The notes below the pieces were generated by a model. It did not search any database. It saw only the letters and a program-made list of their open reading frames with translations, and was not told the DNA's origin. A stretch of DNA of 64,000 bases, taken from sequence record NC_004928.1, one strand, 5' to 3'. Below, piece by piece: positions 6,583-55,004 of the stretch. Origin of the DNA: Escherichia phage RB69. A program made the position numbers and the translations under genes. Position 1 is the stretch's first letter; each line of letters opens with the position of its first letter.

Positions 6583-6791
6583 TAAGTTGTACCATTTTCA
6601 GTGATTTCACGGAAGATACCATAGATAGGCATTTCATCACCGAGTTTTTCGTAAACATAAACCACTTCAGTGTAGCATAAAAATTCAGTCCAGTTTTTCT
6701 GTACAACAACTAAATCAGGATTAAACAGAACATCTTCAAACTCGTCACGATTCGATTCAGTGGTTACATTTTTAATAATTTGACGTTTCAT
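6564..6791 (-). CDS. hypothetical protein
   Basis: ORF track 6564..6836; the first 15 codons are a read-through of the promoter/ribosome-binding cassette, so the likely start is Met16 after GAGGAG. Confidence 0.45.
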
Positions 6792-6819
6792 AATATTCTC
6801 CTCTTGTTTTGATAGGTCT

Positions 6820-6848
6820 ATAGTATCATAGACCATAGTTGTTGTACA
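6820..6848 (-). promoter_or_regulatory. early-type promoter cassette (TGTACA, 17 nt, TACTAT) with ggtctat/atagacc inverted repeat
   Basis: sigma70-like -35 and -10 on the minus strand upstream of the GAGGAG site. Confidence 0.4.
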
Positions 6849-7373
6849 TCATTTTAGCAAAATAAAATCAACTTGTTCTGCTAACGAACGTCTGAACATT
6901 AATTGACAACTTCCGAGTATGAAATCAAGTGCTTCATAGACCGCGATGTAGTATCCTTTAGCTTTGAAGAGTTCAACATCCACCTGGTCATCAAACCATG
7001 CATAAACCGCGTCAACACTTTCAAATCCAAAATAGAACTCTTGAGCCCAATCTTCGTTCAATTCAAATGTGTGCTCAATTCTATAGTATCTTAAGATATT
7101 TTGTTCAAGGAGTTTGTCTTCATTTACTGTAGGACGATTAGGGACATTATAGTTGTCGCCGTGATGGTAGAAGTTACCTGAGATTATTCCATGTTTATCA
7201 AGGAATTCCCATGTTTCTTCAGAGTTGTCAGTGCCAGACCAACCGTAAGGTGAGCGAGGTTCTTTATTCCAAGAGGTTTCCCAAATTCTGACGGCTTTAC
7301 CGTCTTCGATAGCAATTCCTGGTAATGATTCACGTTGAGTACAAAAACTACGTTCTACGCGGTAAACTAACAT
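6849..7373 (-). CDS. hypothetical protein
   Basis: 174-aa ORF. Confidence 0.5.
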   Translation of the reverse strand: MLVYRVERSFCTQRESLPGIAIEDGKAVRIWETSWNKEPRSPYGWSGTDNSEETWEFLDKHGIISGNFYHHGDNYNVPNRPTVNEDKLLEQNILRYYRIEHTFELNEDWAQEFYFGFESVDAVYAWFDDQVDVELFKAKGYYIAVYEALDFILGSCQLMFRRSLAEQVDFILLK

Positions 7374-7399
7374 ATTATTCTCCTCTGGTTGATATGGGT

Positions 7400-7428
7400 T
7401 ATAATATCAAAACCAGAGGAGAAGTAAA
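7400..7428 (-). promoter_or_regulatory. early promoter (GTTTAC, 17 nt, TATTAT); spacer complementary to the downstream ribosome-binding site
   Basis: cctctggtt (7381-7389) and aaccagagg (7411-7419) form an inverted repeat around the -10. Confidence 0.5.
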
Positions 7429-7862: not shown

Positions 7863-8318
7863 TTAAGCTTTACGAGGAGACACATAGCGAGTGATTTCAG
7901 ATTCTTTAACAACTCGGAAGTCACCTAAGAATACGATATTGTATAACTTTTCACCATCTTCAACCCATTGGTCGCTAATGAAGCCACACATGGTATCAGT
8001 TGTGCTTGGATAACCGTATTCGTCGATGTAATCAAATTCTTTATCGGTAATAAATTCAACACCTTTGCAAAGGGCCCATTTAAACTGTACATTAGGTTCA
8101 GTAGAAGCAAAATGAGCGCTCACAGGAGTTTCCAAAAATTTAGGACTTACGTAAGCGTACCGAGTTTCAGTTTTCCCAGAACTAGGAATGATTCGAACTT
8201 TAACTTCTTTAACACGACCAGTACCATTAGTACGAAGTCCTACCACTTCAACTAGACGACCTGCAGCTTTAGAACGAGATGCAGTTGATACACGCTTAAT
8301 TTCACCAATAGTAATCAT
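7863..8318 (-). CDS. hypothetical protein, tandem paralogue B
   Basis: 151 aa; paralogous to 7434..7853. Confidence 0.55.
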   Translation of the reverse strand: MITIGEIKRVSTASRSKAAGRLVEVVGLRTNGTGRVKEVKVRIIPSSGKTETRYAYVSPKFLETPVSAHFASTEPNVQFKWALCKGVEFITDKEFDYIDEYGYPSTTDTMCGFISDQWVEDGEKLYNIVFLGDFRVVKESEITRYVSPRKA

Positions 8319-8344
8319 AATTTTTCTCTCTTTGTTGTTAAGAT

Positions 8345-8376
8345 TTATACTCCATCCGTCCTTGGATGTACAACAT
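8345..8376 (-). promoter_or_regulatory. early promoter cassette, degenerate copy of the tccaaccatccttgg family
   Basis: minus strand TTGTACA, 17 nt, TATAAAT. Confidence 0.4.
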
Positions 8377-8473
8377 TAATTAAGGATATTAACCACAGCA
8401 CTACGTGGAACTACACTAAAATCACCTGCATGAACAACGTTCAGAAGTTCAACAACCGTCTTCAATCCACTGA

Positions 8474-8872
8474 TCAGTTACCCATCCACTCACTGGACCT
8501 GCGAAACGGACGTCGAATTGAAACAGCTTTACACAACAAATCAGTAGGCTCAATAGGCTTAATCAGAGTACCGTATATACAAGCGATATCCATATCAATA
8601 CAGATGTCTTTAACGGGTTCTACTTCTTCAATCAACAGTTCAAAGTCTGTGCTTGGAAGGGCGGTAGTAGAAATTGTACCATATGAATTTTTAATTTCTA
8701 AGAATAACCAAGGGCCTTCAGCTTGTTTGATGAAGTTAACAATAGTGAAACTATTACCTTGAGTGGCGCCTAAAATTTCACAAAACTTTTCATAAGCTCG
8801 CACTGAAGCACCGTACCAGTTAATTTGTTTTTCGTCTTTCAGGATGTAAGTAGCCGTAGTATTGATATTCAT
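8474..8872 (-). CDS. hypothetical protein
   Basis: 132-aa ORF. Confidence 0.5.
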   Translation of the reverse strand: MNINTTATYILKDEKQINWYGASVRAYEKFCEILGATQGNSFTIVNFIKQAEGPWLFLEIKNSYGTISTTALPSTDFELLIEEVEPVKDICIDMDIACIYGTLIKPIEPTDLLCKAVSIRRPFRRSSEWMGN

Positions 8873-8890
8873 AATGTTTTCCTGTTTGGT

Positions 8891-8938
8891 ATAAGATAGA
8901 AAGATTATACTCCAACCATCCTTGGTTGTAAACTGTTT
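8891..8938. repeat. about 48-bp direct repeat, copy 1 (second copy at 50964..51010)
   Basis: taagatagaaagattatactccaaccatccttggttgtaaactgtttt read by eye at both sites. Confidence 0.6.
8904..8933 (-). promoter_or_regulatory. early promoter (GTTTACA, 17 nt, TATAAT) with spacer hairpin
   Basis: minus strand GTTTACAACCAAGGATGGTTGGAGTATAAT; spacer holds caacca-agga-tggttg. Confidence 0.55.
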
Positions 8939-9615
8939 TATCGCTGTTTTACACTTAACGGGTCAGGATTCTCAGGGACATCTTCAAGGCCAAGCGCATA
9001 ACGCTGAGCATATTTTAACATCAAAATATCTTTAGCACAATCATGAATACTATCATGGGCAACGAATCCTTTTAGCGTACCCATCGGTAATGGACACATA
9101 CTTAATCCTCGTGTCAACGAGTAAGCTTCGATTGCTGTACGAATATCGCGTTGAGCCCAGAATTTAACCGGTTCTAATTTATCGGTATCAATCTCTGGTT
9201 CAAGAACACCTTCATCACGATAGAGGTCACGAATCAAATCGACCAAGATCGGGAAGTCAAAGCTCATACCACGGCACCACATCTGTGATTTCCATTGGTC
9301 AACTTTATTAGCTCGACAATAATCTAAAAAGATTTTAATGCCTTCAAGCGTAGTGACATCGTCTTCAGACGGGGCCAAGTTTTTACGTGCTTCAGCCGAT
9401 TGTTCTTTCCACCATTTCATAGTGGATTTAGCGAAAACTCGCTTCCCTTTCTGAGAAGCTAAATTAAATTTAATTCGCTTACCTCGTTGAACAAGTTCTT
9501 CAAATGATTCAACAACTTCAGGGTCGGAATTATATGCAATAACCGCAAGGTCAATAACAGCCGCTTTTGATGTATTGCCGAATGTTTCAAAATCTATAAT
9601 AACATCAGTGCTCAT
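8938..9615 (-). CDS. dexA: exonuclease A (DnaQ-like 3-prime to 5-prime exonuclease)
   Basis: 225 aa; N-terminal IIDFETFG exonuclease motif; T4 dexA size and position. Confidence 0.8.
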   Translation of the reverse strand: MSTDVIIDFETFGNTSKAAVIDLAVIAYNSDPEVVESFEELVQRGKRIKFNLASQKGKRVFAKSTMKWWKEQSAEARKNLAPSEDDVTTLEGIKIFLDYCRANKVDQWKSQMWCRGMSFDFPILVDLIRDLYRDEGVLEPEIDTDKLEPVKFWAQRDIRTAIEAYSLTRGLSMCPLPMGTLKGFVAHDSIHDCAKDILMLKYAQRYALGLEDVPENPDPLSVKQR

Positions 9616-11248: not shown

Positions 11249-11995
11249 TTAACCTTTAATCAGTTGGAATAATGATGCGCTAAGTGGTAAGCCACGTTTC
11301 AATTTTAATTTACCAATGAAACCAATCTTTTCAAAACGTTGCAGACCTTGGATAACTTTATCATATGTATCGAAAAGCGATTCAGCGTCAGTTAATTTAG
11401 TTTTAGTTTTCCAGTCAGAGCCTTTAAGAAGAACGTTGAGTTTAGTAAGTTCATGGCCTTCTGCTTGATGTGAGCCATTAATGCGTGCTTTCAAAGCAAC
11501 AATTCTAAGTTTAGATTCGTTAGATAAAGGTTGATTTTTCATCATGTTTGCCATATGCTTAACACGGTTTTCACGTTTTGCTCGGATTTTTAAAATAGTA
11601 CCATAAACCTTTTTAATTTGGGCCCATTTCTTCTCGTCGAGATTAAGTTTCTCTACTTTACGAGCAGAAGGATTAGCGATACGTCTTGCAATAGCATCAC
11701 GTTTCTCAATAAGTTCTTCTAATGTTAAATCAGAACGAGCCGTGTTATATTTTTTCTTAACTGGGATAACATTACCTTTAATGTAGCCTATATCATTATT
11801 AAAACGTTCTAAGGATAATTTCTCACCTTCAACAGAGTTATTGAAAGATTCACCTGAGTAAGCGCAGACCTTTTGATCAAGAATGTTTTTAAGGTAATTA
11901 AAGTCTAAGTTAAAATCCTTAGAGCGTCTCTTCGCAGAAGCTCTGGTGTGGTCAAGACGACGATTGATTTTGTTAATTTTATTATTTGATAACAT
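11249..11995 (-). CDS. srd: Srd-like protein (putative anti-sigma / sigma-mimic)
   Basis: 248-aa basic protein at the T4 srd position upstream of modA. Confidence 0.5.
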   Translation of the reverse strand: MLSNNKINKINRRLDHTRASAKRRSKDFNLDFNYLKNILDQKVCAYSGESFNNSVEGEKLSLERFNNDIGYIKGNVIPVKKKYNTARSDLTLEELIEKRDAIARRIANPSARKVEKLNLDEKKWAQIKKVYGTILKIRAKRENRVKHMANMMKNQPLSNESKLRIVALKARINGSHQAEGHELTKLNVLLKGSDWKTKTKLTDAESLFDTYDKVIQGLQRFEKIGFIGKLKLKRGLPLSASLFQLIKG

Positions 11996-12044
11996 AATAT
12001 TTTCCTCTGTCTTACGGACGTTAAGGTCATTTAGCTGATAAGTC

Positions 12045-12073
12045 TATAATATCATGCCCTCAGGTAGTGTACA
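12045..12073 (-). promoter_or_regulatory. early promoter (TGTACA, about 16 nt, TATTAT) upstream of srd
   Basis: minus strand GTGTACActacctgagggcatgaTATTATagac. Confidence 0.4.
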
Positions 12074-12148: not shown

Positions 12149-12757
12149 TCAGTAACTGACAATAGACAGATTCCAGATTGTATAATGTCCATCTTGAATA
12201 ATAGAATCTACACGCAGTGTAGTCCCTATAGGGAGCATAAATTCACATTCGTCAGATATAAGTCTAGCGTTAGACCGTCTTGTCGCTTCAGGGAAAGCTC
12301 CATTGAACTCACAAGATGGCGCAGCCAGAATCATGTTAAGCATATGTTCACGGAAGTTGAAAGCAAATGGTGCATCTTTGATGCAGAACATATTAAATGT
12401 TCCGTAAAAATTATACGAAGCAAAGTTACGTGCTACACCGAACACTGGACTGAAGCTCATTACTCTGTCAAATTTAATAATACTACCAATGCCTTTATCA
12501 TCAAGTGTGGCCATAGTTTTCTTAGAGATTCCACGATACATTGTCTCAGGAACAGAAGACGACCAATTTCTACGAACAATTGCACTTAAATCTTGTTGGA
12601 TGCTATCAGGCTTGTTTTCCATACACTGCCATAGTACACTTTGTTCAATGTCACTGAATTGCTCATCGATTTTGTACTGAAGCATATCTTGATAATCCGG
12701 GCATTGAGCACGACGAACCATTTCTTCAATTTCACACTCGTTATACGGCATAAACAT
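12149..12757 (-). CDS. modA: ADP-ribosyltransferase ModA-like
   Basis: 202 aa; YRGI and SFS motifs; paralogous to the next ORF; T4 modA position. Confidence 0.6.
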   Translation of the reverse strand: MFMPYNECEIEEMVRRAQCPDYQDMLQYKIDEQFSDIEQSVLWQCMENKPDSIQQDLSAIVRRNWSSSVPETMYRGISKKTMATLDDKGIGSIIKFDRVMSFSPVFGVARNFASYNFYGTFNMFCIKDAPFAFNFREHMLNMILAAPSCEFNGAFPEATRRSNARLISDECEFMLPIGTTLRVDSIIQDGHYTIWNLSIVSY

Positions 12758-12814
12758 TTAGGTTTCTCCTATGGTTGATAAAGGTATAGTATCATCATCG
12801 GAAGAGTTTGTACA

Positions 12815-13396
12815 CTAAAAATTCAACATTTTCAAATGAATGATTTTGTATAATCTAGATAAAGGGTCATATTCTAAGTCTTCAATTTCCACAATCTCAA
12901 ATCTAGAGATACCTGAGACCATGTACTCTTGTTCAGATTCAATCATATCTAGGACATCAACACGTGTTTCTTCCATAACATGCTTAGGGTTCTTTCCGGC
13001 AAGTACAATGTTAATCATGTTTTGGTAGTAATCAAAAATGAATGGAGCATTCCTGAGACTAAGAATAGTGTACGTCTGATATTCCCATCTCCCGGAGAAT
13101 TGACGAGCTGTACTGAAATCAGTTGTGAACGATGTTACTCGTCCAGGAGACCAATGGCATCCAACAGAAAGAAGTGAAAGACGTTCTACTTCTTCTGGAG
13201 TTACACCACGGTAGAGTTCTACTGGTACTGTAGAAGTCATATGCTTACGAACAAGATGGTCTAATTCATAGTGGAAATCCGGGTCTTCCTTAGAATCGGT
13301 GCAAGCCCAGAGAATGTTTTGTTCTTGGCGGGTGAATTTGCTATCAATCAGATTTGTTAGGTATTCGCGTTCTTGAAGTTCAGATTGACATGTCAT
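12815..13396 (-). CDS. modB: ADP-ribosyltransferase ModB-like
   Basis: 193 aa; YRGV motif; paralogue of modA. Confidence 0.6.
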   Translation of the reverse strand: MTCQSELQEREYLTNLIDSKFTRQEQNILWACTDSKEDPDFHYELDHLVRKHMTSTVPVELYRGVTPEEVERLSLLSVGCHWSPGRVTSFTTDFSTARQFSGRWEYQTYTILSLRNAPFIFDYYQNMINIVLAGKNPKHVMEETRVDVLDMIESEQEYMVSGISRFEIVEIEDLEYDPLSRLYKIIHLKMLNF

Positions 13397-13423
13397 GATA
13401 GACCTCCATTTAAAGATAAGCCT

Positions 13424-13452
13424 ATCATAACATGAGAGGAGGGAATGTAAAC
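13424..13452 (-). promoter_or_regulatory. early promoter (GTTTAC, 17 nt, TATGAT) upstream of modB
   Basis: spacer cctcc is complementary to the downstream GGAGG site. Confidence 0.5.
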
Positions 13453-14716: not shown

Positions 14717-14878
14717 TCATCCCCAACGGATTTGGGCATTAAATTTGACGTCTTCACCATCCATCATGAATGAGTGTACGAGTACGTCATCATAATATCC
14801 AAGACCGTATTTCAACGAAACTTCTTGAGCAATCAAAGCACCTAATGTGTTATTAGGTTTAATCCAACGATTTAACAT
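14717..14878 (-). CDS. hypothetical small protein
   Basis: 53-aa ORF translated by hand (MLNRWIKPNNTLGALIAQEV...), preceded by AGAGGAG. Confidence 0.35.
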   Translation of the reverse strand: MLNRWIKPNNTLGALIAQEVSLKYGLGYYDDVLVHSFMMDGEDVKFNAQIRWG

Positions 14879-14943
14879 ATTGTTCTCCTCTTGAGTAAGT
14901 AAGAATATCTTAACATAGTTTTTAGTGGTTGTAAACTCTAGAA

Positions 14944-14972
14944 ACGAAAAAAGGAATCCCGAAGGATTCCTT
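14944..14972 (-). terminator. Intrinsic terminator with UUCG tetraloop downstream of soc
   Basis: aaggaatcc-cgaa-ggattcctt followed by UUUUUUCG on the minus-strand RNA. Confidence 0.6.
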
Positions 14973-18661: not shown

Positions 18662-18947
18662 CTGTGATTTCGGTTATGATATCTTTGTTATCGAAATTAG
18701 GGTCACAATACAAAACATAGTTGTACTGCATGATACCGCCAGACTTAAGTTGTTCAACAACTTTATTAACCATATTAGGACGGTCTCGTTTAGTGATGTT
18801 CATGATATCAGAGAAGATTTGTTGTTCAACATCTTCTTGATTTGCAGTCATTGACCACTCACAGAGGTCTTTATCATAACCTGCCGTAACTGGAGCCGGT
18901 GCACATGATACTGCAAGTAAGATTGCTGCCAATGATAACTTTTTCAT
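18654..18947 (-). CDS. predicted lipoprotein
   Basis: 97 aa; signal peptide ending in lipobox LAVSC. Confidence 0.5.
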   Translation of the reverse strand: MKKLSLAAILLAVSCAPAPVTAGYDKDLCEWSMTANQEDVEQQIFSDIMNITKRDRPNMVNKVVEQLKSGGIMQYNYVLYCDPNFDNKDIITEITGE

Positions 18948-18976
18948 TTTAACTCCTTAGTTGATTTGATAGGACT

Positions 18977-19006
18977 ACTATACTATAGTCCATCTATAAT
19001 GTAAAC
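18977..19006 (-). promoter_or_regulatory. early promoter (GTTTAC, 18 nt, TATAGT), ggactat-type cassette
   Basis: upstream of the AAGGAG site of the lipoprotein gene. Confidence 0.45.
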
Positions 19007-19010: not shown

Positions 19011-19259
19011 TTATTCTTTTTCGCGAATAATAATTACTTGTTGAGGCTGCTGAGCCGATTTCTTTTCGGCAACGATAGACCAAATTAAAGTTCCAATCCA
19101 ACCAACCATCGTCCAGTTAAAGAGTAAAGATACAAAGAAGATTGCTGTTGTGCTTTTTGTGCCACGAATAAGTGCGATTACCCAAGGCAACATGTAAATG
19201 ATGATTGAACCAATACCTGCGATTAAAACTGCTACTGAACTAGCTACGAATAATTCCAT
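19011..19259 (-). CDS. small integral membrane protein
   Basis: 82 aa; two hydrophobic helices. Confidence 0.5.
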   Translation of the reverse strand: MELFVASSVAVLIAGIGSIIIYMLPWVIALIRGTKSTTAIFFVSLLFNWTMVGWIGTLIWSIVAEKKSAQQPQQVIIIREKE

Positions 19260-19320
19260 GTTAATTTCCTCTTGATTTGTTATGTTTATAGTATCTTGTT
19301 TTAACTTTGGTGTAAACCAA

Positions 19321-19689
19321 TTAATTAAATTTGTTTAAACGTTCAATACACTGGACGTAGTTATTCGCGATTTGTTTCTGGGTAGGCTCTTTACCAGTTG
19401 TTTCAACATAGCGAATGAACGCGATTTCAGTAGCCTGTAAGCAATGTTCTTTAACGCGTTGTTCTTTTGACAATGCTACAGTATCAGAATCACGATAACG
19501 TTGAGCATGGGCATCAGCTTGAATCATTCGATTACCTACAGTAACCGGGTCTTCCACTTCAACTTTAGGTTGGTTGTACTGTTTAACATTCGGATTGTAA
19601 ATCAGTTGGCCAACGTTATTAGGGATAAAGCCATGGGCACCACATCCAGTTAATCCGAATACCATTGCTAAAGCGATTAATTTTTTCAT
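19321..19689 (-). CDS. predicted lipoprotein
   Basis: 122 aa; signal peptide with lipobox LTGC. Confidence 0.5.
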   Translation of the reverse strand: MKKLIALAMVFGLTGCGAHGFIPNNVGQLIYNPNVKQYNQPKVEVEDPVTVGNRMIQADAHAQRYRDSDTVALSKEQRVKEHCLQATEIAFIRYVETTGKEPTQKQIANNYVQCIERLNKFN

Positions 19690-19749
19690 TTCAATTTCCT
19701 CTGTAGTTGATAGAAAGATAGTAACACAGTATGTGGTGCTTGTAAACAG

Positions 19750-20176: not shown

Positions 20177-20469
20177 TCAGCGTGATAAACTGTAGCACCT
20201 TTAGTATTATTCATTTGAACTACGTCTACCGGAGAAATTACTCGATAGAGACGTGGTTCACCTCCATAAGAGCGTGCTGCTCGTCCTGCATAAATCTTTG
20301 CTAAACCGATATCTTCAGTAAAGAATACACGATCCAAGTTTTTCTTACGTCCAGTTTCAGACAGAACTCCTGTTTCCTCAGGAGGACAAAGCATGTTTTC
20401 GATGTTAGCTGAACTACTTGAACCGTGATAAAAAATCTTAAATTCTGCTTTACAATCGATGGTTTTCAT
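20152..20469 (-). CDS. hypothetical protein
   Basis: 105-aa ORF with its own early promoter. Confidence 0.45.
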   Translation of the reverse strand: MKTIDCKAEFKIFYHGSSSSANIENMLCPPEETGVLSETGRKKNLDRVFFTEDIGLAKIYAGRAARSYGGEPRLYRVISPVDVVQMNNTKGATVYHAEWAFCEEI

Positions 20470-20495
20470 TTTGTTCTCCAGTAGGTGATAGGTCT

Positions 20496-20523
20496 ATAAT
20501 ACACAACTACTGGAGAAGTAAAC
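20496..20523 (-). promoter_or_regulatory. early promoter (GTTTAC, 16 nt, TATTAT); spacer complementary to downstream ribosome-binding site
   Basis: ctccagtag (20476-20484) and ctactggag (20508-20516) form a 9-bp inverted repeat that includes the GGAG site. Confidence 0.5.
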
Positions 20524-20898
20524 TTAAAAACGTAATTTAGATATATCTGCGTTGATTTCGTTTTGGTTTGCGTCGTATGCAATTAAACGAACCGCTTTAG
20601 ATGGGTCATTCAATGCATAGAAATGATGGAACATTGCTCGAACGATATCACCATTTACGAGTTCTACCTGGATAGGAGAACCTTTTTCGAGTTGGAAATG
20701 TTCATAAGCTTTGATGGTTCGCAGATAATCAAGTTTTTGATTTCCGGCTCCAACAATTTGTACGATACGTTTGCCCATGTTTTCCATACGAGATACAATA
20801 GTTTTAGGAGCAAGAATAACGTAGGTTGCCAGCGGAGAAACTACTTCAACAGTTGTGTTTTCGGTGATTGCAGTAAAAATTGCTTGAGACATATTCAT
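20524..20898 (-). CDS. hypothetical protein
   Basis: 124-aa ORF. Confidence 0.5.
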   Translation of the reverse strand: MNMSQAIFTAITENTTVEVVSPLATYVILAPKTIVSRMENMGKRIVQIVGAGNQKLDYLRTIKAYEHFQLEKGSPIQVELVNGDIVRAMFHHFYALNDPSKAVRLIAYDANQNEINADISKLRF

Positions 20899-20927
20899 AA
20901 TGTTTTCCTCTTGGTTGGTGTAAGTAC

Positions 20928-20957
20928 ATCATATCATGTCTAGAGGAAGATGTAAAC
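20928..20957 (-). promoter_or_regulatory. early promoter (GTTTAC, 18 nt, TATGAT)
   Basis: minus strand GTTTACatcttcctctagacatgaTATGAT. Confidence 0.4.
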
Positions 20958-42102: not shown

Positions 42103-42482
42103 TTTACCGCCTTAACAATTTTCAAGTCAGCGAATTTTTTCTTACGTTGATTTTTCATACTACGGATAGTCTTTTCAGAGATTTCATGTTTCTGATAAGC
42201 TTTAGATTCAACACCAAATGCAGCACCGTCAAATTCAGAAAGAATATATTGTACTCGAATTTCACGAATAGAATTACGTCCAATTTTCTGGTCCGTGTTT
42301 TTGCATGATTTCCATAAAGACGGAAATTCCCACGCGTCAAGAACTTGAGGAGTAACAATATTGCCAGATTCCAGAAGAGCAACAACTTTATCGAAAGCGA
42401 AAGAATTAACTACGCTTTTGATTTTAGTAGACATATTATTTTCCTCGGTTATTTTATTATCCAACGAGAGAATTATACTCAT
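42099..42482 (-). CDS. hypothetical protein
   Basis: 127-aa ORF. Confidence 0.45.
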   Translation of the reverse strand: MSIILSLDNKITEENNMSTKIKSVVNSFAFDKVVALLESGNIVTPQVLDAWEFPSLWKSCKNTDQKIGRNSIREIRVQYILSEFDGAAFGVESKAYQKHEISEKTIRSMKNQRKKKFADLKIVKAVK

Positions 42483-42500
42483 CTCTCGAGAGTTTGTATA

Positions 42501-42740
42501 CTATTTTTGAAGCATGGAAAGTAAGTAATTTGTATCACGTGGAGTAATATCAACACCCATATCAAAGATGCCTTTATAGATTGGGTATTTGTTTTCGGTT
42601 GTATGGAAGCTGAAACTATTTCCATCACAACTAACAGTAATAGCATCTGTTAAAATGTCATACTCAATCCTAACAATTGAATCCCCAATTTTAACGTCGA
42701 GGTGTTTTTTGAATTTGATAAAATCTAATTCTTGGGCCAT
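42501..42740 (-). CDS. hypothetical protein
   Basis: 79-aa ORF. Confidence 0.4.
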   Translation of the reverse strand: MAQELDFIKFKKHLDVKIGDSIVRIEYDILTDAITVSCDGNSFSFHTTENKYPIYKGIFDMGVDITPRDTNYLLSMLQK

Positions 42741-43018
42741 GATATTTTCCTCATTTTAAGACGATAGGAAGATAATAACATGTCTTCCCTATCGTTGTAC
42801 ATTATTAACCGAACTTTTTTGGCGCCTTTCCAGCCTTCGTACATAACTGCACAAGTCAGTAGTACAGCGTGCTGGCATTCTTTGTATTTGTAAATCCAGA
42901 ACCAGCGTAAGAAGTCTTCATCCTCAACGCCGGTGGATTTCATATTGGCAAAGAATTCGGCACGTTCTTCACGAAGCTTTTGCGATAACATAGATTCAGG
43001 ATTCATTTTGTGTTCCAC
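42725..43018 (-). CDS. hypothetical protein
   Basis: 97-aa ORF. Confidence 0.4.
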   Translation of the reverse strand: MEHKMNPESMLSQKLREERAEFFANMKSTGVEDEDFLRWFWIYKYKECQHAVLLTCAVMYEGWKGAKKVRLIMYNDREDMLLSSYRLKMRKISWPKN

Positions 43019-43694: not shown

Positions 43695-43873
43695 AGTTTA
43701 ATTTCCTTCGCAATTGAACAGAAGATGCCACGGTCACAAATCATTTCACCGATTCCAGGATACTTGATTGAGCGATACCAAACATCTAGAGTTGAAACTT
43801 TGGTTATTATAATAACATTGCCGTTAACGGAATAATACTGATCAACCTTAATTTCTTTATCTTCAATTGTCAT
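43691..43873 (-). CDS. hypothetical small protein
   Basis: ORF track 43691..44035; likely start Met55 after AGGAGAA. Confidence 0.35.
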   Translation of the reverse strand: MTIEDKEIKVDQYYSVNGNVIIITKVSTLDVWYRSIKYPGIGEMICDRGIFCSIAKEIKL

Positions 43874-44088
43874 TTTGTTTTCCTCTGTGGTAGATGATGC
43901 TAATCTTAACATATCTATCGAGGATGTAAACTGTTTTATGAAAATATTTTTGATTTGAGAGGGGCACAAGGAGATAGTGAAGTGAAGATTCCAATGGATT
44001 ATATTAGAAATGAGATAAAGAAGACCAGGCGGCACCTGGTCAATCTTCTATGATATCAGAGTCGTATCCTAATGAAATCAAGGACTTT

Positions 44089-50003: not shown

Positions 50004-50947
50004 TATAACACCTCAATGGCATTTCGTAAACCATCCGCTTTCGCATTCAGAGCTTTTAACGATTTAGTTTGTTCTGCAATCTGGGCTTCGACTTCTTTCA
50101 GACGAGATTTGAGATATTCGCGTTCTTCTCTTAAGTTATCAACCTTTTCTGCTTTAGGTTCTTTAATAGGCTTAAACACATTAGGGTTCTTCAGTTTAAT
50201 TTTAATTCGAGAACTGAATAACATTGAACCGTTATCTTCGGTTTCACTGTGCATTTCTACCACGTCCATGATTCTTAACATCATGCGAAGTTTATAAGAC
50301 AGCGAACGAACGGTTTTATTGTGCTTCTTAATTTCTTCAGCTTTCATGGTGCCGAGATTACGTGAGTAATAATAAGGAACCTGAATATCAATTGATAATG
50401 ATGCGGTACCATTACCGGTTGGTTTGAACACTGCAGTAACCCAATCTTTAACATGAACTTTATTTGTACGATCATCGCCGCCAGTGAATAATTTACAAGA
50501 ATGTTTAAAAAGCATATTCACTTGGTTATTGAATTCACAAGCAAATTTATCAGCAAATTTAGTTTCAGGAATGGTAGAGAACCAATCAGCTAAATGAGTC
50601 TTTTTAACATCATTAACAATAGTGAATTCAACCAAATCGGTTTTAGATGTCACAGATTTAATAAAGCTCGGCTTCATAAAGTTTTTGATGTTATCACGAG
50701 CTACAGTAGAAGATAATAAACGAGAACGTTTGAACCATTGAAGCAGTGTCCCTAATGAATGAGAATACGCATTCTGAGTATCTTTACAGATATGATTTTC
50801 TTGGCCCGTGTATGTACCAAAATCGCGAAGAATACCACTTACTACATCTCGGTGTGGAACATCAAATCCTAGTGCACCAACAGCGCGCTGGGCATGAACG
50901 TTAGCGATAAGACCGGCAAAGTATTCAATGTAATGTGAACGTGTCAT
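50003..50947 (-). CDS. hypothetical protein
   Basis: 314-aa ORF, coiled-coil C-terminus. Confidence 0.5.
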   Translation of the reverse strand: MTRSHYIEYFAGLIANVHAQRAVGALGFDVPHRDVVSGILRDFGTYTGQENHICKDTQNAYSHSLGTLLQWFKRSRLLSSTVARDNIKNFMKPSFIKSVTSKTDLVEFTIVNDVKKTHLADWFSTIPETKFADKFACEFNNQVNMLFKHSCKLFTGGDDRTNKVHVKDWVTAVFKPTGNGTASLSIDIQVPYYYSRNLGTMKAEEIKKHNKTVRSLSYKLRMMLRIMDVVEMHSETEDNGSMLFSSRIKIKLKNPNVFKPIKEPKAEKVDNLREEREYLKSRLKEVEAQIAEQTKSLKALNAKADGLRNAIEVL

Positions 50948-50963
50948 AATGTTTTCCTCTCGT

Positions 50964-51010
50964 TAAGATAGAAAGATTATACTCCAACCATCCTTGGTTG
51001 TAAACTGTTT
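50964..51010. repeat. about 48-bp direct repeat, copy 2 (first copy at 8891..8938)
   Basis: same sequence as copy 1 read by eye. Confidence 0.6.
50976..51005 (-). promoter_or_regulatory. early promoter (GTTTACA, 17 nt, TATAAT) within the repeat
   Basis: identical to the 8904..8933 cassette. Confidence 0.55.
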
Positions 51011-51069
51011 TTATGATTTTAATGCATTCATTGCGTTAAAAAGTTTAGAATACTGCAACTGGAGATTCG

Positions 51070-51972
51070 TTACAACACTTTGAGCATCACGGAGCTTAGC
51101 TTGTGCCTTGTCCAGTTCAACAGACAGTTGGTCCACGGGGGCTTTGATTTGGTTGTAATGGTAATCTTCGGCCGGAAGAAGGCATTAGAACATTTAGTTT
51201 TACTGCCGACAGTTTGCACACATTTGGCAACCTTTAACATACCAGGTTGTGCCGGAGCTGGAGAATATGCACCTAAGACTTCGGCATTACCAACTGGTGT
51301 TGCAGTAATTGACGCTTCGAACGTTGCATTTTCCTTTTTAAGATTTTGATAGTATTCAGAGTCTTTGTGCCACCATGGCGCAGGAACCTTTTTACCAATA
51401 GATACACGAGCCTGGATAGCAATATGACCCTTATTCTTGATGGGGTCGATAATATTAAGCTCACGAGAATAAATTGCTTTAATCTGGTGGATATTATCAC
51501 CTAACACTTCCAACGCTTGGTGGAATACACGAGCAACGTTATCATTCTTAGGTTTATACGTAAGAGTGAACTCATTCTCACTGATAACCATGATTTCCAA
51601 CTTATCGTAAGTATATTTCAAATGTTTCATGTTAATTGCTTGAGGACGAATACGAGAAGCAATGGCCAACAGATTGTTAAGGTTATTTCTGAACTGTTTA
51701 GCAAAATATTGTCCGTAGCCGCCGATACAAAAATTACGAAGTTTCTGTTTGGCTAATAAACGGCTGAACTCACCATTTTTAATGAACTCTTTAACGGGTG
51801 TGTTAGTAACGCATTCAAATTGAGTAAACTTACGAGAATTAATCCCATAATATGAACAGATTTCCTCAATCTCTTCAGGAGTCTTTACAGGCATACGGAT
51901 AGGATTAGGTCCTGGAGTATATGCGTTCGAGGTAAATTCTTTGATAAGTTCTCTACGTGTAATAGAAGCCAT
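51070..51972 (-). CDS. hypothetical protein
   Basis: 300-aa ORF. Confidence 0.5.
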   Translation of the reverse strand: MASITRRELIKEFTSNAYTPGPNPIRMPVKTPEEIEEICSYYGINSRKFTQFECVTNTPVKEFIKNGEFSRLLAKQKLRNFCIGGYGQYFAKQFRNNLNNLLAIASRIRPQAINMKHLKYTYDKLEIMVISENEFTLTYKPKNDNVARVFHQALEVLGDNIHQIKAIYSRELNIIDPIKNKGHIAIQARVSIGKKVPAPWWHKDSEYYQNLKKENATFEASITATPVGNAEVLGAYSPAPAQPGMLKVAKCVQTVGSKTKCSNAFFRPKITITTKSKPPWTNCLLNWTRHKLSSVMLKVL

Positions 51973-51997
51973 TTTATATTCCTCATGTTGAAAAATT

Positions 51998-52028
51998 TAT
52001 TATACTCCAACCATCCTTGGTTGTACAT
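51998..52028 (-). promoter_or_regulatory. early promoter cassette, third copy of the tccaaccatccttgg family
   Basis: minus strand TGTACAACCAAGGATGGTTGGAGTATAAT. Confidence 0.5.
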
Positions 52029-53023
52029 CATTCCTTAAGAAGTTTTACTACTTGAATAAGATTAGCTCGTTCTGTTTTATTTTTACCGTTTAAGCCTGCT
52101 AATCGTGAGATTTCATCGTCAGTCTGTTGAATAGTTACATTAAGTTCGTTAATCAAAGCTTCAAAGTATTTGATTTGCTCAGCATGTTTTGATTCAAATT
52201 TCTGAACCGGAATAACGTCTTGGTTTAGTTCGTCAATAAGGTCTTTAAGAGCATCTTCTTGGTTGATATCATATTCAACTTCTTTTATTTCTTCAACGAG
52301 CTCGTCTTTATATCTAACGTCTTTTAGTCCTGGTGCTGGTCCTGAAATCTCTTCTTTAAGAGTACAAACATACCCAATACGGTATCCAATGCCGTCTCGC
52401 TTGATATCAACTTCGTCGATAAATCCACAATGTTTAAGACCAGAGCCGATTAGGTTAAAATATCCTTGACGTCGTCCTTCAAACGTTACACGAACTACTA
52501 AGACGGTTTTGCCACCGACCTTTTGAAGCTCACATTTATAAAAGTCAGTTGAACCTGAATAACGTGGATGAGTTTTAAAGTTCATCTGACGATCTAGGCC
52601 CATTTGTAAACGTGCTGATACGGCCAGAAAACGTGTTTGGTTCTCGTTAAGATGAGCAACAATCTGTTTCAAAGGCATTTTACCCTGTTCACGTCCGAAC
52701 AAATCAGTACGTCCTAGATTACGCAGGATGTTGTTAGAGTTAATCATCGACAGAACGTTAAGTTTATTCAGCGCGCTGAAGATTCCATCAGCCATTGATT
52801 TTCCATAACCTTTACACGCTTTAATAAGTGCTCGCGGCAGATTAGTATAGATTTCAGACGGCATATGAAAATCAAATTTACTAGTCAGTAATTGATGAAC
52901 TTGGATAGCAATTTGCTCATAATTAAGTGCTCTGCGATCGTTATGGTCTTTAAACCACACTTTAATCTGTGAAGCACATAAACCGTTAATTTCATGTTTT
53001 ACCGCATCAGATGTAATGCTCAT
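52028..53023 (-). CDS. hypothetical protein
   Basis: 331-aa ORF. Confidence 0.5.
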   Translation of the reverse strand: MSITSDAVKHEINGLCASQIKVWFKDHNDRRALNYEQIAIQVHQLLTSKFDFHMPSEIYTNLPRALIKACKGYGKSMADGIFSALNKLNVLSMINSNNILRNLGRTDLFGREQGKMPLKQIVAHLNENQTRFLAVSARLQMGLDRQMNFKTHPRYSGSTDFYKCELQKVGGKTVLVVRVTFEGRRQGYFNLIGSGLKHCGFIDEVDIKRDGIGYRIGYVCTLKEEISGPAPGLKDVRYKDELVEEIKEVEYDINQEDALKDLIDELNQDVIPVQKFESKHAEQIKYFEALINELNVTIQQTDDEISRLAGLNGKNKTERANLIQVVKLLKE

Positions 53024-53085
53024 AACTATTTCCTCAGATTGAATTGGAACTCAAAACCATTATAACCCGTCCTTGGGTAAAGCGT

Positions 53086-53613
53086 TTATGCGTGAACCGT
53101 CTTTAAACGTTCTTCAAATTTCCGAAGAGTACTAATACGTTCTGCTTTCTGTTTTGTATAGTTTGCAATACGTTCTGAAGTGAGAGCGTATCGTTCGTTT
53201 ACTGTTTCTTTCATGAAGTCAGGGATTTCACGAGAATCTCCAATTTCATCAAACTTATCGAGTACTGCCTGGTCTTCAGCAATTAAATTTTCGTACATCT
53301 CGATATCTTTCTTAATAAACTCGATATCTTCCTGGGTTACTTTGGATAAACGAGATGCTTTATCCTTTTTGTGCTGTTCGTTAGTTTCACGAGACCAGAA
53401 TAATGTACGTTTTTTGTTAGTGTTTTTGTAGACTTCCACAATTCCAACTGAATCGATGATAACAATCCAATTCCAGCGAGATTTGAAAATCTGACCTCCG
53501 TCCACGGTAATCTCGTTACCATAAGCAACGTCATTAAAGAACTTGCTTTGTGCTTCAGATTTAAATTTACCGTCGTTATAATTTACCAGGTTGAAAATAT
53601 CTTTAGCGTTCAT
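53086..53613 (-). CDS. hypothetical protein
   Basis: 175-aa ORF. Confidence 0.5.
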   Translation of the reverse strand: MNAKDIFNLVNYNDGKFKSEAQSKFFNDVAYGNEITVDGGQIFKSRWNWIVIIDSVGIVEVYKNTNKKRTLFWSRETNEQHKKDKASRLSKVTQEDIEFIKKDIEMYENLIAEDQAVLDKFDEIGDSREIPDFMKETVNERYALTSERIANYTKQKAERISTLRKFEERLKTVHA

Positions 53614-53640
53614 GTTTTACCTCCAGTAGTTGATAGGTCT

Positions 53641-53669
53641 ATAATAACATAACCATAGACCTTGTAAAC
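53641..53669 (-). promoter_or_regulatory. early promoter (GTTTAC, 17 nt, TATTAT), ggtctat cassette
   Basis: minus strand GTTTACaaggtctatggttatgtTATTATagacc. Confidence 0.5.
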
Positions 53670-54948: not shown

Positions 54949-54975
54949 ATTTACTCATTTCGTTTCGATAGGTCT

Positions 54976-55004
54976 ATAATAACATGTTTAAAGCAAAAGT
55001 AAAC
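54976..55004 (-). promoter_or_regulatory. early promoter (GTTTAC, 17 nt, TATTAT)
   Basis: minus strand GTTTACttttgctttaaacatgtTATTATagacc. Confidence 0.5.

What the first reader, a model, noticed from the sequence alone, without database searches (positions are those of the whole stretch)
8891..8938. Families of near-identical promoter and stem-loop cassettes in front of unknown genes
An identical stretch of about 48 bp occurs at 8891-8938 and 50964-51010, with close variants at 51998-52028, 8345-8376 and 53045-53080. Each contains GTTTACA, a spacer with a small hairpin, and TATAAT on the minus strand. A second family (gataggtctataat) occurs at 6811, 20486, 53631, 54970 and 55245, and a third (aggactactata or gacaggtctatagta) at 18971, 57641, 58091 and 61326. 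They sit at the 5-prime ends of small genes of unknown function in the variable regions. This fits what I recall being described for T4-type phages as promoter-early stem-loop elements proposed to mediate shuffling of gene modules.
Basis: partly seen in the sequence, partly recalled or inferred. Interest (0 to 1): 0.55.

Follow-up and report, generated by a model that had tools for sequence, protein, structure and literature searches.

The report
Phage early-promoter cassettes with nested hairpins
The repeats are about 25 copies of the strong early promoter and ribosome-binding-site cassette of a T4-like (RB69-type) phage, an element class already described as "PeSLs"; comparisons with relatives confirm they sometimes serve as crossover points for gene gain and loss, and suggest their hairpins act in RNA to silence transcripts arriving from upstream.

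Summary
The window is the first 64 kb of a Mosigvirus (RB69-like T4-type phage). It carries about 25 minus-strand cassettes: A/T-rich region, GTTTAC -35, 16-17 nt spacer, TGnTAnnAT -10, about 20-nt leader, SD, ATG. The 48-nt duplicate (8892-8939 = 50964-51011) and all three motif families exceed chance.

They match PeSLs (Arbiol 2010; Comeau 2014, which covers T4/PST), so the kind is known. The shuffling claim is partly borne out. Five of 31 indel events against close relatives have both ends in cassettes, and three are clean crossovers in a shared 19-27 nt core. However, cassette junctions are not significantly more breakpoint-prone than other gene junctions (p = 0.075).

New here: the hairpins use the promoter spacer as their 5' arm.
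- Across 138 cassette clusters from 66 sequence sources (the window plus 65 loci), arms co-vary: at least 10 bp in 18.8% of native pairs, 0.26% of swapped pairs.
- Mismatches favour sense-strand G·U.
- The SD is occluded only in predicted read-through RNA.
- These hairpins are nearly exclusive with upstream terminators (1/17 vs 50/121).

I infer RNA-level insulation from read-through. The flagged family's hairpin has a conserved A-N-GGA loop (CsrA- or RegB-like), function untested.

The parts
8870..8939 (-). Flagged cassette. -35 TTTACA 8927-8932, spacer hairpin CAACCA-AGGA-TGGTTG 8913-8928, GGAG 8910-8913, -10 TATAAT 8904-8909, SD AGGA 8880-8883, ATG 8870-8872. The dexA stop codon lies 5 nt upstream of -35. 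The downstream ORF 8474-8872 is a frameshifted copy of a 164-aa gene.
50945..51011 (-). Exact 48-nt duplicate of the flagged cassette (type C hairpin 50985-51000). Drives a 314-aa member of a tandem paralogue family.
51970..52034 (-). Family-1 cassette with TGTACA -35 and the same 27-nt core. Upstream crossover partner in the AV115 deletion of 51003-51998.
8316..8372 (-). Family-1 variant (TGTACA ... TATAAA) with a co-varied spacer stem CATCC/GGATG. Crossover partner of cassette 8932 in AV115.
53023..53080 (-). Degenerate family-1 relic (CTTTACC, 11-nt spacer, TATAAT), probably not a functional -35/-10 promoter.
61303..61361 (-). regB cassette, type A. The spacer TTCTCCTCTAGTTG pairs with the SD region CAACTAGAGGAGAA (14 bp), with -10 and the start site in the loop.
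7371..7428 (-). Type A cassette: TTCTCCTCTGGTT / AACCAGAGGAGAA (13 bp) plus inner stem GATAT/ATATC. Drives a 174-aa gene.
   Evidence: z = -5.7
20467..20522 (-). Type A cassette: TTCTCCAGTAGTTG / CACCTACTGGAGAA (14 positions, 1 mismatch), 15-nt spacer.
58066..58123 (-). Type A cassette (TTCTCCTC/GAGGAGAA, 8 bp). An intrinsic terminator at 58141-58162 lies just upstream. Duplicate copies of that terminator flank a 594-nt insertion in LF82-9.
20896..20956 (-). Cassette with a 7-bp anti-SD/SD stem (TTCCTCT/AGAGGAA) and an upstream UUCG-tetraloop hairpin at 20965-20980.
43871..43930 (-). Cassette with a short anti-SD stem (TCCTC/GAGGA). The SD is predicted to be fully paired in read-through RNA.
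53611..53668 (-). Type B cassette: AGGTCTAT in the spacer pairs with ATAGACCT directly after -10 (8 bp). An outer helix reaches the SD.
   Evidence: z = -3.0
57615..57674 (-). Type B cassette: TAGGACTA/TAGTCCTA (8 bp), a compensatory variant of the 53668 stem.
   Evidence: z = -3.4
6789..6848 (-). Type B cassette upstream of cef: GGTCTAT/ATAGACC (7 bp).
18945..19005 (-). Cassette upstream of sp: type B stem GGACTA/TAGTCC, and an alternative within-spacer hairpin TATAG-atgga-CTATA.
42738..42801 (-). Type B cassette: ACGATAGG(G)AAG / CTTCCTATCGT. Right-hand breakpoint of an AV115 deletion.
42432..42500 (-). Weak cassette (TATACA -35) with CGAGAG/CTCTCG pairing across -10. Left-hand breakpoint of the same AV115 deletion.
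54934..55003 (-). Family-2 cassette without a spacer-to-leader stem. Crossover partner of 55281 in LF82-9.
55223..55281 (-). Family-2 cassette without a spacer-to-leader stem. A G+C hairpin at 55302-55317 lies upstream.
11993..12073 (-). srd cassette (long leader, no significant stem).
12755..12814 (-). Cassette of the first ADP-ribosyltransferase gene (no significant stem).
13394..13451 (-). Cassette of the second ADP-ribosyltransferase gene (CCTCC/GGAGG, 5 bp only).
14876..14972 (-). Cassette 14935 with a canonical UUCG-loop intrinsic terminator (14951-14972) just upstream and no spacer-to-leader stem.
19257..19316 (-). imm cassette (no stem).
19687..19746 (-). Cassette of a 122-aa gene. Relatives lack the gene immediately upstream, with a breakpoint 24 nt above -35.

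Best explanation
These are T4-type immediate-early expression cassettes, the element class published as PeSLs, in an RB69-like phage (Mosigvirus). Each about 75-nt unit carries an A/T-rich UP-like region, a near-consensus sigma-70 promoter (GTTTAC -35, TGn-extended -10), a start site about 7 nt after -10 (A in 67% of clusters), a short leader, an SD and the ATG.

The copies look alike for two reasons. Almost every position is constrained for RNA polymerase or ribosome recognition (shown by conservation). Copies also occasionally exchange sequence (inferred from hybrid cassettes and patchy 5-nt block polymorphisms).

The stem-loops are best read as RNA structures, not DNA signals. Their 5' arm occupies the promoter spacer, the one stretch free to vary. 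Their 3' arm lies downstream of -10. In type A it covers the SD. In type B it ends at about the transcription start. In type C, the flagged family, the whole hairpin sits in the spacer. Because the start site lies inside or beyond the hairpin, the structure exists only in transcripts that start further upstream and read through.

Inferred consequence: read-through RNA is silenced at the cassette (SD occluded, and possibly then Rho-dependent polarity or decay), while the cassette's own transcript has a free SD. Each gene is thus tied to its own early promoter. The hairpin does the job that a canonical terminator does at other cassettes.

As a side effect, the shared 19-27-nt cores are substrates for homologous recombination that deletes, inserts or swaps the gene between two cassettes.
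For: Identity:
- 95-98% identity to Mosigvirus genomes, collinear with the T4 early region.
- 22-23 strong sites on the minus strand against 0 on the plus strand, with fixed spacing to SD and ATG.
- A/T content upstream of -35 is 0.72 against 0.63 for the window.
- The regB orthologue in T4 is described as having 'a typical early promoter' (PMC3014915).

Hairpins are real and specific:
- In 274 distinct cassettes from the window plus 65 loci, spacer-to-leader stems of at least 7 bp occur 88 times against 8.6 expected, and at least 10 bp 35 times against 0.3.
- After collapsing to 138 clusters, native pairs reach at least 10 bp in 18.8% against 0.26% for swapped partners.
- regB orthologues (RegB 56-97% identical) change both arms together.

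Sense-strand single-strand structure:
- Internal mismatches are G.T in 16 clusters against A.C in 4. Type B alone is 14:1, p = 0.0057 against the measured 1.53:1 transition background.

Read-through logic:
- Predicted SD accessibility has a median of 0.26 in read-through RNA against 0.60 in own transcripts (paired p = 1e-16).
- The SD is less than 10% open in 33% of cassette clusters against 11% of 400 control gene starts (p = 3e-7). Short transcripts show no difference.
- Window type A cassettes go from about 0.00 to 0.5-0.65.
- Spacer-to-leader stems and upstream intrinsic terminators are nearly mutually exclusive: 1/17 against 50/121, Fisher p = 0.0057.
- Read-through of early transcripts is an established T4 pathway (PMC2988021).
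- No terminator separates dexA from the flagged cassette.

Recombination:
- Sequence-verified hybrid cassettes.
- 15 of 62 breakpoint ends fall in the 4.5% of sequence occupied by cassette zones.
Against: - No transcript, structure or translation data exist for this phage. Start sites are inferred from the -10 position.
- About half of the window's cassettes have no significant stem.
- The flagged copies fold no better than shuffles overall (z = +0.43 and -1.05).
- Type A stems show no G.U excess (2 vs 3 clusters). With the background correction the pooled G.U test is only marginal (p = 0.055).
- Type B hairpins do not themselves cover the SD, so their effect on translation is not explained directly. 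They could equally act as attenuators or as 3'-end stabilisers of the upstream message.
- Cassette clusters are not fully independent phylogenetically.
- At the gene-junction level the recombination excess is not significant (p = 0.075).
Confidence: 0.7

Rival explanations
1. The stem-loops are transcription attenuators or terminators, or 3'-end protective hairpins for the upstream message, as Arbiol et al. proposed. They overlap the next promoter only because intergenic space is short. Occlusion of the SD is incidental.
For: An SLS from phi1 reduced downstream lacZ expression like a strong terminator (PMC2839356). Mutual exclusivity with canonical terminators fits this equally well. Type B hairpins end at the start site and do not cover the SD. 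RegB cuts SDs just downstream, so a hairpin there could protect the upstream fragment (inference from PMC3014915).
Against: None of the spacer-to-leader hairpins is followed by a U-tract, so they are not intrinsic terminators. Type A 3' arms coincide exactly with the SD in five or more window cassettes and in regB orthologues across genera. SD occlusion is significantly more frequent than at control gene starts.
Confidence: 0.3
2. The inverted repeats act in DNA. They are cruciforms or hairpins that attract a recombinase or endonuclease VII, and exist to promote module shuffling.
For: Arbiol et al. speculated about a DNA-binding protein at conserved stems. Crossovers do occur inside cassettes.
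Against: Verified crossovers map to the longest shared identical stretch (27 and 19 nt), as expected for plain homologous recombination, and not to the stems as such. G.T outnumbers A.C on the sense strand (type B 14:1), whereas a cruciform needs both strands to pair. Stem sequences differ between cassettes, so no common protein site exists. Junction-level enrichment of breakpoints is weak.
Confidence: 0.08
3. The palindromes in the spacer are operators for a dimeric phage repressor that shuts off early promoters.
For: Inverted repeats between -35 and -10 are the classic operator position. The mechanism of early-promoter shut-off in T4 is not fully understood (PMC3014915).
Against: Arm sequences co-vary and differ from cassette to cassette, which a sequence-specific protein could not follow. 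Most 3' arms lie outside the spacer. Half of the cassettes have none.
Confidence: 0.04
4. There is no selected structure. The similarity reflects recent duplication or gene conversion of promoter cassettes, and the hairpins are inherited accidents of A/T-rich, partly palindromic promoter sequence.
For: The two flagged copies are identical, and their overall fold energy is unremarkable. Families of copies share arms by descent.
Against: Enrichment survives collapsing to 138 clusters and the swapped-partner control. There are compensatory changes between paralogues and orthologues. The association with absence of terminators is not expected from accident.
Confidence: 0.08

Closest known systems
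PeSLs (promoter-early stem-loops) of T4-type phages: RB49/phi1 (Arbiol et al. 2010, PMC2839356); PST/T4 and nt-1/KVP40 (Comeau et al. 2014, PMC4122927)
   Same: Composite intergenic unit of A/T-rich region, sigma-70-type early promoter, stem-loop, SD and ATG. Concentrated in variable regions. The promoter consensus equals the PST/T4 form TTTACW-N17-TAYWAT. Stem-loops lie between -35 and -10 or overlap -10, the commonest classes in phi1. Deletions and replacements have crossovers inside the elements.
   Different: The host genome is a Mosigvirus, which those papers did not catalogue. For PST, the stems were drawn just upstream of the promoter. Here most use the spacer as the 5' arm and the leader or SD as the 3' arm. 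Here the stems show covariation, a sense-strand G.U bias, SD occlusion and exclusivity with terminators. The papers report none of these and do not discuss translation. Mini-circles were not tested.
Nested-promoter, RBS-sequestering hairpins of T4 genes e, soc, 49 and I-TevI (reviewed in PMC3014915)
   Same: The SD is paired in long transcripts from upstream. A promoter lies inside the hairpin, so its own transcript lacks the 5' arm and is translatable.
   Different: In the known cases the nested promoter is a late promoter (TATAAATA), and the effect is late-only translation. Here it is an early sigma-70 promoter, and the 5' arm is the -35/-10 spacer itself. The predicted effect is early-only, own-promoter-only translation. 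No experiment exists for the early version.
T4 early promoters ('uber' UP/-35/TGn/-10 promoters; Hinton 2010, PMC2988021)
   Same: The same recognition elements and extended conservation beyond the hexamers. The same genes are served (regB, srd, mod genes, imm, sp).
   Different: That literature treats the spacer as promoter DNA. The role of the spacer as an RNA arm is not described in the reviews read here.
CsrA/RsmA binding hairpins (E. coli SELEX consensus RUACARGGAUGU; AnGGA in a hairpin loop; cited in PMC6692469) and S1-independent RegB substrates (GGA unpaired, fourth base constrained; PMC3014915)
   Same: The flagged hairpin CAACCA-AGGA-UGGUUG and its relatives place A-N-GGA in the loop of a 5-7-bp stem. 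Several relatives contain ACAAGGAUGU exactly. GGAU in the window copies fits the RegB GGAG/U motif. A second GGA (the SD) lies 34-39 nt downstream.
   Different: This is pure sequence resemblance. No binding or cleavage was tested. Five of 12 loops have GGAA or GGAC, which do not fit RegB. No literature linking CsrA to T4 was found.

Membership tests
PeSL (Arbiol 2010; Comeau 2014) | Sigma-70-type early promoter with -35 and -10 boxes about 17 nt apart (PST/T4 form TTTACW-N17-TAYWAT) | tested here: met
   22-23 sites scoring at least 10 on the minus strand and 0 on the plus strand; spacers of 16-17 nt
PeSL (Arbiol 2010; Comeau 2014) | A/T-rich region upstream of -35 | tested here: met
   A+T is 0.72 in the 24 nt upstream of -35 against 0.63 for the window
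PeSL (Arbiol 2010; Comeau 2014) | Associated stable stem-loop (upstream of, within or overlapping the promoter) | tested here: met
   8 of 23 scored window cassettes have spacer-to-leader stems of at least 7 bp, plus cassette 20522 outside that scan. Four have within-spacer hairpins and about four have upstream terminator-like hairpins. A minority have none.
PeSL (Arbiol 2010; Comeau 2014) | SD and start codon of the downstream gene at the 3' end; intergenic location | tested here: met
   From the end of -10 to ATG is 26-31 nt in most cassettes
PeSL (Arbiol 2010; Comeau 2014) | Preferential location in hyperplastic regions, upstream of ORFans | tested here: inconclusive
   All lie at 6.8-21 kb or 42-61.4 kb, and none in the 21-42 kb replication-gene block. 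Several serve named conserved early genes such as regB, srd, imm and sp.
PeSL (Arbiol 2010; Comeau 2014) | Indels or replacements between close relatives with crossovers in or beside the elements | tested here: met
   5 of 31 events have both ends in cassettes and 3 hybrids were verified by sequence. Junction-level enrichment is not significant.
PeSL (Arbiol 2010; Comeau 2014) | Promoter activity, terminator/attenuator activity, mini-circle formation | not testable with these tools
   Needs reporter assays and PCR on phage DNA
Nested-promoter RBS-sequestering hairpin (T4 e/soc/49/I-TevI type) | SD and/or AUG paired in a helix in transcripts from upstream | tested here: met
   Prediction only. 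SD unpaired probability is 0.00-0.01 at 7428, 20522, 43930, 58123 and 61361. It is below 0.1 in 33% of 138 clusters against 11% of controls.
Nested-promoter RBS-sequestering hairpin (T4 e/soc/49/I-TevI type) | A promoter lies within the hairpin, so its own transcript lacks the 5' arm | tested here: met
   The 5' arm lies in the -35/-10 spacer, and -10 and the inferred +1 lie in the loop. Start sites are inferred, not mapped.
Nested-promoter RBS-sequestering hairpin (T4 e/soc/49/I-TevI type) | The nested promoter is a late promoter (TATAAATA), giving late-only translation | tested here: not met
   The nested promoters are early sigma-70-type. So it works like this family but is not a member.
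CsrA binding site | A-N-GGA in the loop of a short hairpin; a second GGA at or near the SD | tested here: met
   12 of 15 within-spacer hairpin clusters have A-N-GGA loops. In the window copies the loop GGA and the SD GGA are 34-39 nt apart.
CsrA binding site | Binding by CsrA and CsrA-dependent regulation | not testable with these tools
   No relevant literature found
RegB cleavage site | GGAG or GGAU with GGA unpaired and the fourth base constrained (S1-independent), or GGAGRAYARAA (S1-dependent) | tested here: inconclusive
   The window copies have loop AGGA followed by a paired U (GGAU), which fits the first form. Five of 12 related loops have GGAA or GGAC. The A-rich 3' context is absent.

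The most novel reading that the evidence does not exclude
The spacer of many T4-type early promoters doubles as the 5' arm of a riboregulator that exists only in read-through RNA. In one form it is an anti-SD that restricts translation of regB and other early genes to transcripts from their own immediate-early promoter. That would be the early-gene mirror image of the late-only switch known for e, soc, 49 and I-TevI. In the flagged family it is a hairpin with co-varying stems and a conserved A-N-GGA loop, matching the E. coli CsrA consensus and the S1-independent RegB substrate. This would let host CsrA or phage RegB act selectively on read-through transcripts.
Probability: 0.35. Interest if true: 0.7.

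Novelty: new member of a known kind. Interest (0 to 1): 0.45.

Why it matters
As promoter cassettes and recombination linkers these elements are already in the literature, so their presence in an RB69-like genome is expected.

What could matter is the evidence that the stem-loop half of the element is a selected RNA structure built from the promoter spacer, and that it substitutes for a terminator. If so, each small early gene would be an autonomously expressed unit at the translational level. That would help explain how T4-type phages tolerate dense arrays of strong promoters without terminators. It would also give a concrete, testable mechanism for limiting potentially harmful early proteins such as RegB to the first minutes of infection. 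The conserved GGA-loop hairpin offers a specific handle for testing whether CsrA or RegB discriminates between read-through and promoter-proximal transcripts.

Tried and rejected
- A MAFFT alignment of regB cassettes did not keep the two arms in register. I therefore did not run the pair-counting tool on it, and used direct arm comparison, a swapped-partner test and cluster-collapsed counts instead.
- The generic sigma-70 hexamer scan was uninformative in this A/T-rich DNA.
- Rfam gave no match in the window.
- The 174-aa protein downstream of cassette 7428, first assumed to be MotB, recovered only three near-identical loci. It is annotated as hypothetical in phiC120.
- GGA is not generally enriched in spacers (23% against 19% expected), so it is not a general promoter-DNA element. 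GGA-loop hairpins are not strikingly strand-biased genome-wide.
- The initial 50:50 null for G.U against A.C was too generous. Sense-strand C<->T differences outnumber G<->A by 1.53:1. With that correction the pooled test is marginal (p = 0.055) and only type B stays significant (p = 0.0057).
- The breakpoint excess relative to sequence length (p = 8e-8) largely disappears when other gene junctions are the null (p = 0.075; p = 0.31 within variable regions).
- Literature searches for early promoters nested in RBS-hiding hairpins and for CsrA in T4 infection found nothing relevant. One search failed on a short term, and a follow-up PeSL search returned only unrelated acronyms.
- Considered and rejected: spacer palindromes as repressor operators, and DNA cruciforms (see rival explanations).
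Full report
**What the window is.** A 4-kb segment around the finding is 97-98% identical to many coliphage genomes annotated with dda, srd, dexA and motB-like genes. The 44-64 kb part is 95-96% identical to Mosigvirus records such as phiC120, LF82-9 and AV115. It is only about 84% identical over 40% of its length to true T4-type phages. Coordinates are collinear with the T4 map starting at rIIA. The window is therefore the early/replication arm of an RB69-like phage, with almost all genes on the minus strand.

**Checking the observation.** The 48-nt exact duplicate is real, at 8892-8939 = 50964-51011.
- A 30-nt core has three copies with at most 3 mismatches, against none in 100 shuffles.
- The second and third motif families are also far above chance: 9 sites against 0.64 expected, and 8 against 1.85.
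- On the minus strand each copy is a promoter-like unit directly upstream of an SD and ATG.
- A two-block weight matrix built from the clear copies finds 22-23 sites scoring at least 10 on the minus strand and none on the plus strand. The distance from the end of -10 to ATG is 26-31 nt in most.
- With weaker or degenerate copies (8372, 20522, 42500, 53080), my working list is about 25 cassettes.
- The copy at 53045-53080 has an 11-nt spacer and is probably defunct.
- A generic TTGACA/TATAAT scan is no better than shuffles. What stands out is the T4-specific consensus (GTTTAC, TGn-extended -10, conserved discriminator and leader) plus strand and geometry.
- Downstream genes are not only small unknowns. 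They include regB, srd, two ADP-ribosyltransferase genes, sp, imm, cef and four tandem 300-330-aa paralogues.

Arbiol et al. 2010 defined PeSLs in RB49/phi1 as follows: A/T-rich region, sigma-70 promoter, a stem-loop (most often between -35 and -10 or overlapping -10), SD and ATG, concentrated in hyperplastic regions. They demonstrated promoter activity, terminator-like activity of one stem-loop, and mini-circles from recombination between elements. Comeau et al. 2014 extended this to PST/T4, with consensus TTTACW-N17-TAYWAT, and to nt-1/KVP40. The window's cassettes meet all the sequence-level criteria, including the A/T-rich upstream region (0.72 against 0.63). The kind is therefore known. 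This is a new host genus for it, not a new kind.

**Testing the shuffling claim.** I aligned the window to 16 loci from close relatives, which give three near-complete equivalents plus partial ones. This catalogued 31 distinct indel or replacement events.

Five events have both ends in cassette zones:
- 8370..8866 (AV115).
- 42498..42795 (AV115).
- 51002..51999 (AV115).
- 54985..55209 (LF82-9 and one other relative).
- 58135..58163 (LF82-9). This is a 594-nt insertion flanked by duplicate copies of the intrinsic terminator that sits just upstream of promoter 58123.

Three of these are sequence-verified hybrids. The upstream half of one cassette is joined to the downstream half of another, inside the longest identical stretch they share. 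That stretch is 27 nt for 52027/51004 and 19 nt for 55281/55003, and the third hybrid joins 8932 and 8372. Six more events have one end at a cassette, for example the replacement of the gene just upstream of the regB cassette.

The family-1 27-nt core is invariant at three loci in all six genomes, while its flanks vary. A 5-nt block after -10 is polymorphic (ctttc, gaatc, aaatc) at one locus among genomes about 96% identical, in a pattern that suggests patchy conversion between copies (inference).

There are limits. Fifteen of 62 breakpoint ends fall in the 4.5% of sequence covered by cassette zones. When other gene junctions are the null, however, the excess is modest: 11/24 against 21/83, p = 0.075, and p = 0.31 within the variable regions. 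Other events are homing-endonuclease insertions, a deletion between 55-nt repeats inside paralogous coding sequences, or junctions with 5-nt microhomology. The cassettes are real but not privileged crossover sites. The crossovers look like ordinary homologous recombination on short identical sequence.

**Anatomy of the stem-loops.** In the window three arrangements recur.
- Type A. The spacer just after -35 is an anti-SD, and the 3' arm is the SD of the downstream gene. Examples are 61361/regB (14 bp), 7428 (13 bp), 20522, 58123 and 20956.
- Type B. A spacer segment pairs with the sequence directly after -10. Examples are 53668, 57674, 6848, 19005 and 42801. The 3' arm ends 5-13 nt after -10, at about the inferred start site.
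- Type C. The whole hairpin lies in the spacer. This is the flagged family.

In all three the 5' arm lies upstream of the inferred start site. The structure can therefore form only in RNA that started further upstream, or in single-stranded DNA.

**Are the hairpins more than chance?**
- In the window, 8 of 23 scored cassettes have spacer-to-leader stems of at least 7 bp, each with a per-site shuffle p of 0.0125 or less.
- I fetched 65 loci from diverse T4-like phages, anchored on regB, gp41 and one other gene, and extracted 274 distinct cassettes. Stems of at least 7 bp occur 88 times against 8.6 expected. Stems of at least 10 bp occur 35 times against 0.3.
- After collapsing to 138 clusters, native spacer/leader pairs reach at least 10 bp in 18.8% of clusters, against 0.26% when spacers are paired with leaders of other clusters. 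The complementarity is therefore cassette-specific and not a by-product of shared consensus.
- The regB cassette shows this directly. The window has TTCTCCTCTAGTTG/CAACTAGAGGAGAA. T4-type phages have TTTTCCTCTTGACTG/CAGTTAAGAGGAGAA, with two G.T pairs. Others have TTTCTCCTCTTTATG/CATAAAGAGGAGAAA or TCTCCTGTAAG/CTTACAGGAGA. A phage whose RegB is 40% identical has no such stem, but has a canonical terminator upstream of the promoter.

**RNA or DNA?** Internal single mismatches in the stems are G.T in 28 cases, A.C in 4 and other in 5. By cluster the count is 16 against 4. The excess comes almost entirely from type B, at 14 against 1, while type A is 2 against 3. Sense-strand C<->T differences between close relatives outnumber G<->A by 1.53:1, so the right null is about 60:40. 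Against that null, type B remains significant (p = 0.0057) and the pooled test is marginal (p = 0.055). This argues against a cruciform, which needs both strands to pair. It favours a structure of the sense strand. RNA is the simplest reading, though sense-strand single-stranded DNA is not excluded.

**Functional predictions.**
- Partition-function folding predicts that the SD is much less accessible in read-through RNA than in the cassette's own transcript. The median is 0.26 against 0.60 (paired p = 1e-16).
- The SD is less than 10% open in 33% of cassette clusters, against 11% of 400 ordinary gene starts folded in the same long context (p = 3e-7). Short contexts show no difference.
- In the window, type A cassettes go from 0.00-0.01 to 0.5-0.65.
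- Fold z-scores are -2.5 to -5.7 for 61361, 7428, 53668 and 57674. They are only +0.43 and -1.05 for the two flagged copies.
- If the hairpins deal with read-through, cassettes already shielded by an intrinsic terminator should lack them, and they do. One of 17 clusters with a terminator within 70 nt upstream has a spacer-to-leader stem of at least 7 bp, against 50 of 121 without one (Fisher p = 0.0057).

The closest precedent is the set of T4 genes e, soc, 49 and I-TevI. There a late promoter sits inside an RBS-sequestering hairpin (PMC3014915). Here the nested promoter is early, so the predicted outcome is the reverse: translation only from the gene's own immediate-early transcripts. That review calls the regB promoter 'a typical early promoter', notes that RegB production must be tightly regulated, and mentions no hairpin. 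Arbiol et al. do not discuss translation or covariation. Within the searchable library I found no description of the early-promoter version.

**The flagged family specifically.** Its hairpin is short, at 6 bp, and thermodynamically unremarkable. However, within-spacer stems of at least 6 bp are enriched overall: 6.5% of clusters against 0.7% in shuffles. Of the 15 clusters with such hairpins, 12 carry A-N-GGA in the loop, while the stems differ: CAACCA/TGGTTG, CATCCA/TGGATG, ACACCA/TGGTGT, ACCACA/TGTGGT, ATCACA/TGTGAT, CGGCAA/TTGCCG, ACATCC/GGATGT and ATCCAC/GTGGAT. The chance of this is about 5e-12 at a generous 7% per loop. On seven 16-nt hairpins, 5 of 6 pairs change on both sides with all cells paired, and the loop and closing A-U are invariant. 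These were selected for pairing, so the loop conservation is the independent observation.

GGA is not generally enriched in spacers. In the window, 5 of 8 sense-strand A-N-GGA-loop hairpins lie in cassette spacers, which make up about 0.6% of the sequence.

Two known readers of such a motif exist:
- E. coli CsrA has the SELEX consensus RUACARGGAUGU, with AnGGA in a hairpin loop (PMC6692469). Several phage hairpins contain ACAAGGAUGU exactly.
- Phage RegB cuts GGAG/U. It does so without S1 when GGA is unpaired and the fourth base is constrained (PMC3014915). The window copies have loop AGGA followed by a paired U.

Neither reading can be tested here. Five of the 12 loops (GGAA or GGAC) do not fit RegB, and no CsrA-T4 literature was found. 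I record this as the most novel reading not excluded.

**Verdict.** The element is a new member of a known kind. The added value is evidence that the stem-loops are promoter-nested RNA structures acting on read-through transcripts. The evidence comprises statistics, covariation, strand asymmetry for type B, SD occlusion and exclusivity with terminators. The promoter identity and the recombination events are shown at the sequence level. The RNA-insulation mechanism is inferred and needs the experiments listed.

Noticed in passing
window 41536-41605 (minus strand): Upstream of gene 55 (late sigma factor) there is a MotA-box middle-promoter-like site (TGCTTTA, then TATAAT). It has the same hairpin design: ATAGGTCT in the spacer pairs with AGACCTAT directly after -10. 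This would be a middle-promoter analogue (PmSL) of the type B cassettes.
   Followed up: partly
window 8319-8872 (minus strand): The ORF served by the flagged cassette (8474-8872, 132 aa) is a twice-frameshifted version of the 164-aa phiC120 gp126. The remaining C-terminal part reads on in the other two frames up to the 8372 cassette. This is either a pseudogene or sequencing errors.
   Followed up: yes
window 59502-59506: All close relatives carry about 410 nt (two small genes of 68 and 70 aa in phiC120) that the window lacks. The junction has only 5-nt microhomology and no cassette.
   Followed up: partly
window 50003-54936: Four tandem paralogous genes of 300-331 aa of unknown function, each preceded by its own cassette (51004, 52027, 53080 relic, 55003). 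AV115 has one fewer, through recombination between cassettes.
   Followed up: partly
window 47782-47836 and 48386-48440: A 55-nt repeat (75% identical) at the ends of two small paralogous coding sequences. AV115 has a 549-nt deletion between them, so recombination here does not involve a cassette.
   Followed up: partly
window 3669-3674, 47202-47257, 36066-36132: Relatives carry insertions of 794, 866 and 919 nt at these points. The first two are annotated as homing endonucleases in phiC120 and AV115. They are unrelated to the cassettes.
   Followed up: no
window 5533-5548, 14951-14972, 20965-20980 (minus strand): UUCG-tetraloop hairpins (AAGGGC-UUCG-GCCCUU and similar), mostly followed by U-tracts. 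These are the classic T4 intercistronic terminator type. Similar CTTCGG hairpins precede cassettes in many of the fetched loci.
   Followed up: partly
window 53926-53954; L069 and L071: Five relatives have about 170 nt here that the window lacks. It contains a long hairpin (GAGGTAA..AGCCATA / TATGGCT..TACCTC) and a different N-terminus for the downstream gene.
   Followed up: no
window 45343-45370 and 48596-48624 (minus strand): Two high-scoring early-promoter matches lie inside coding sequences (the start of the nrdG-like gene and a 55-aa ORF). Possibly internal promoters, possibly chance.
   Followed up: no
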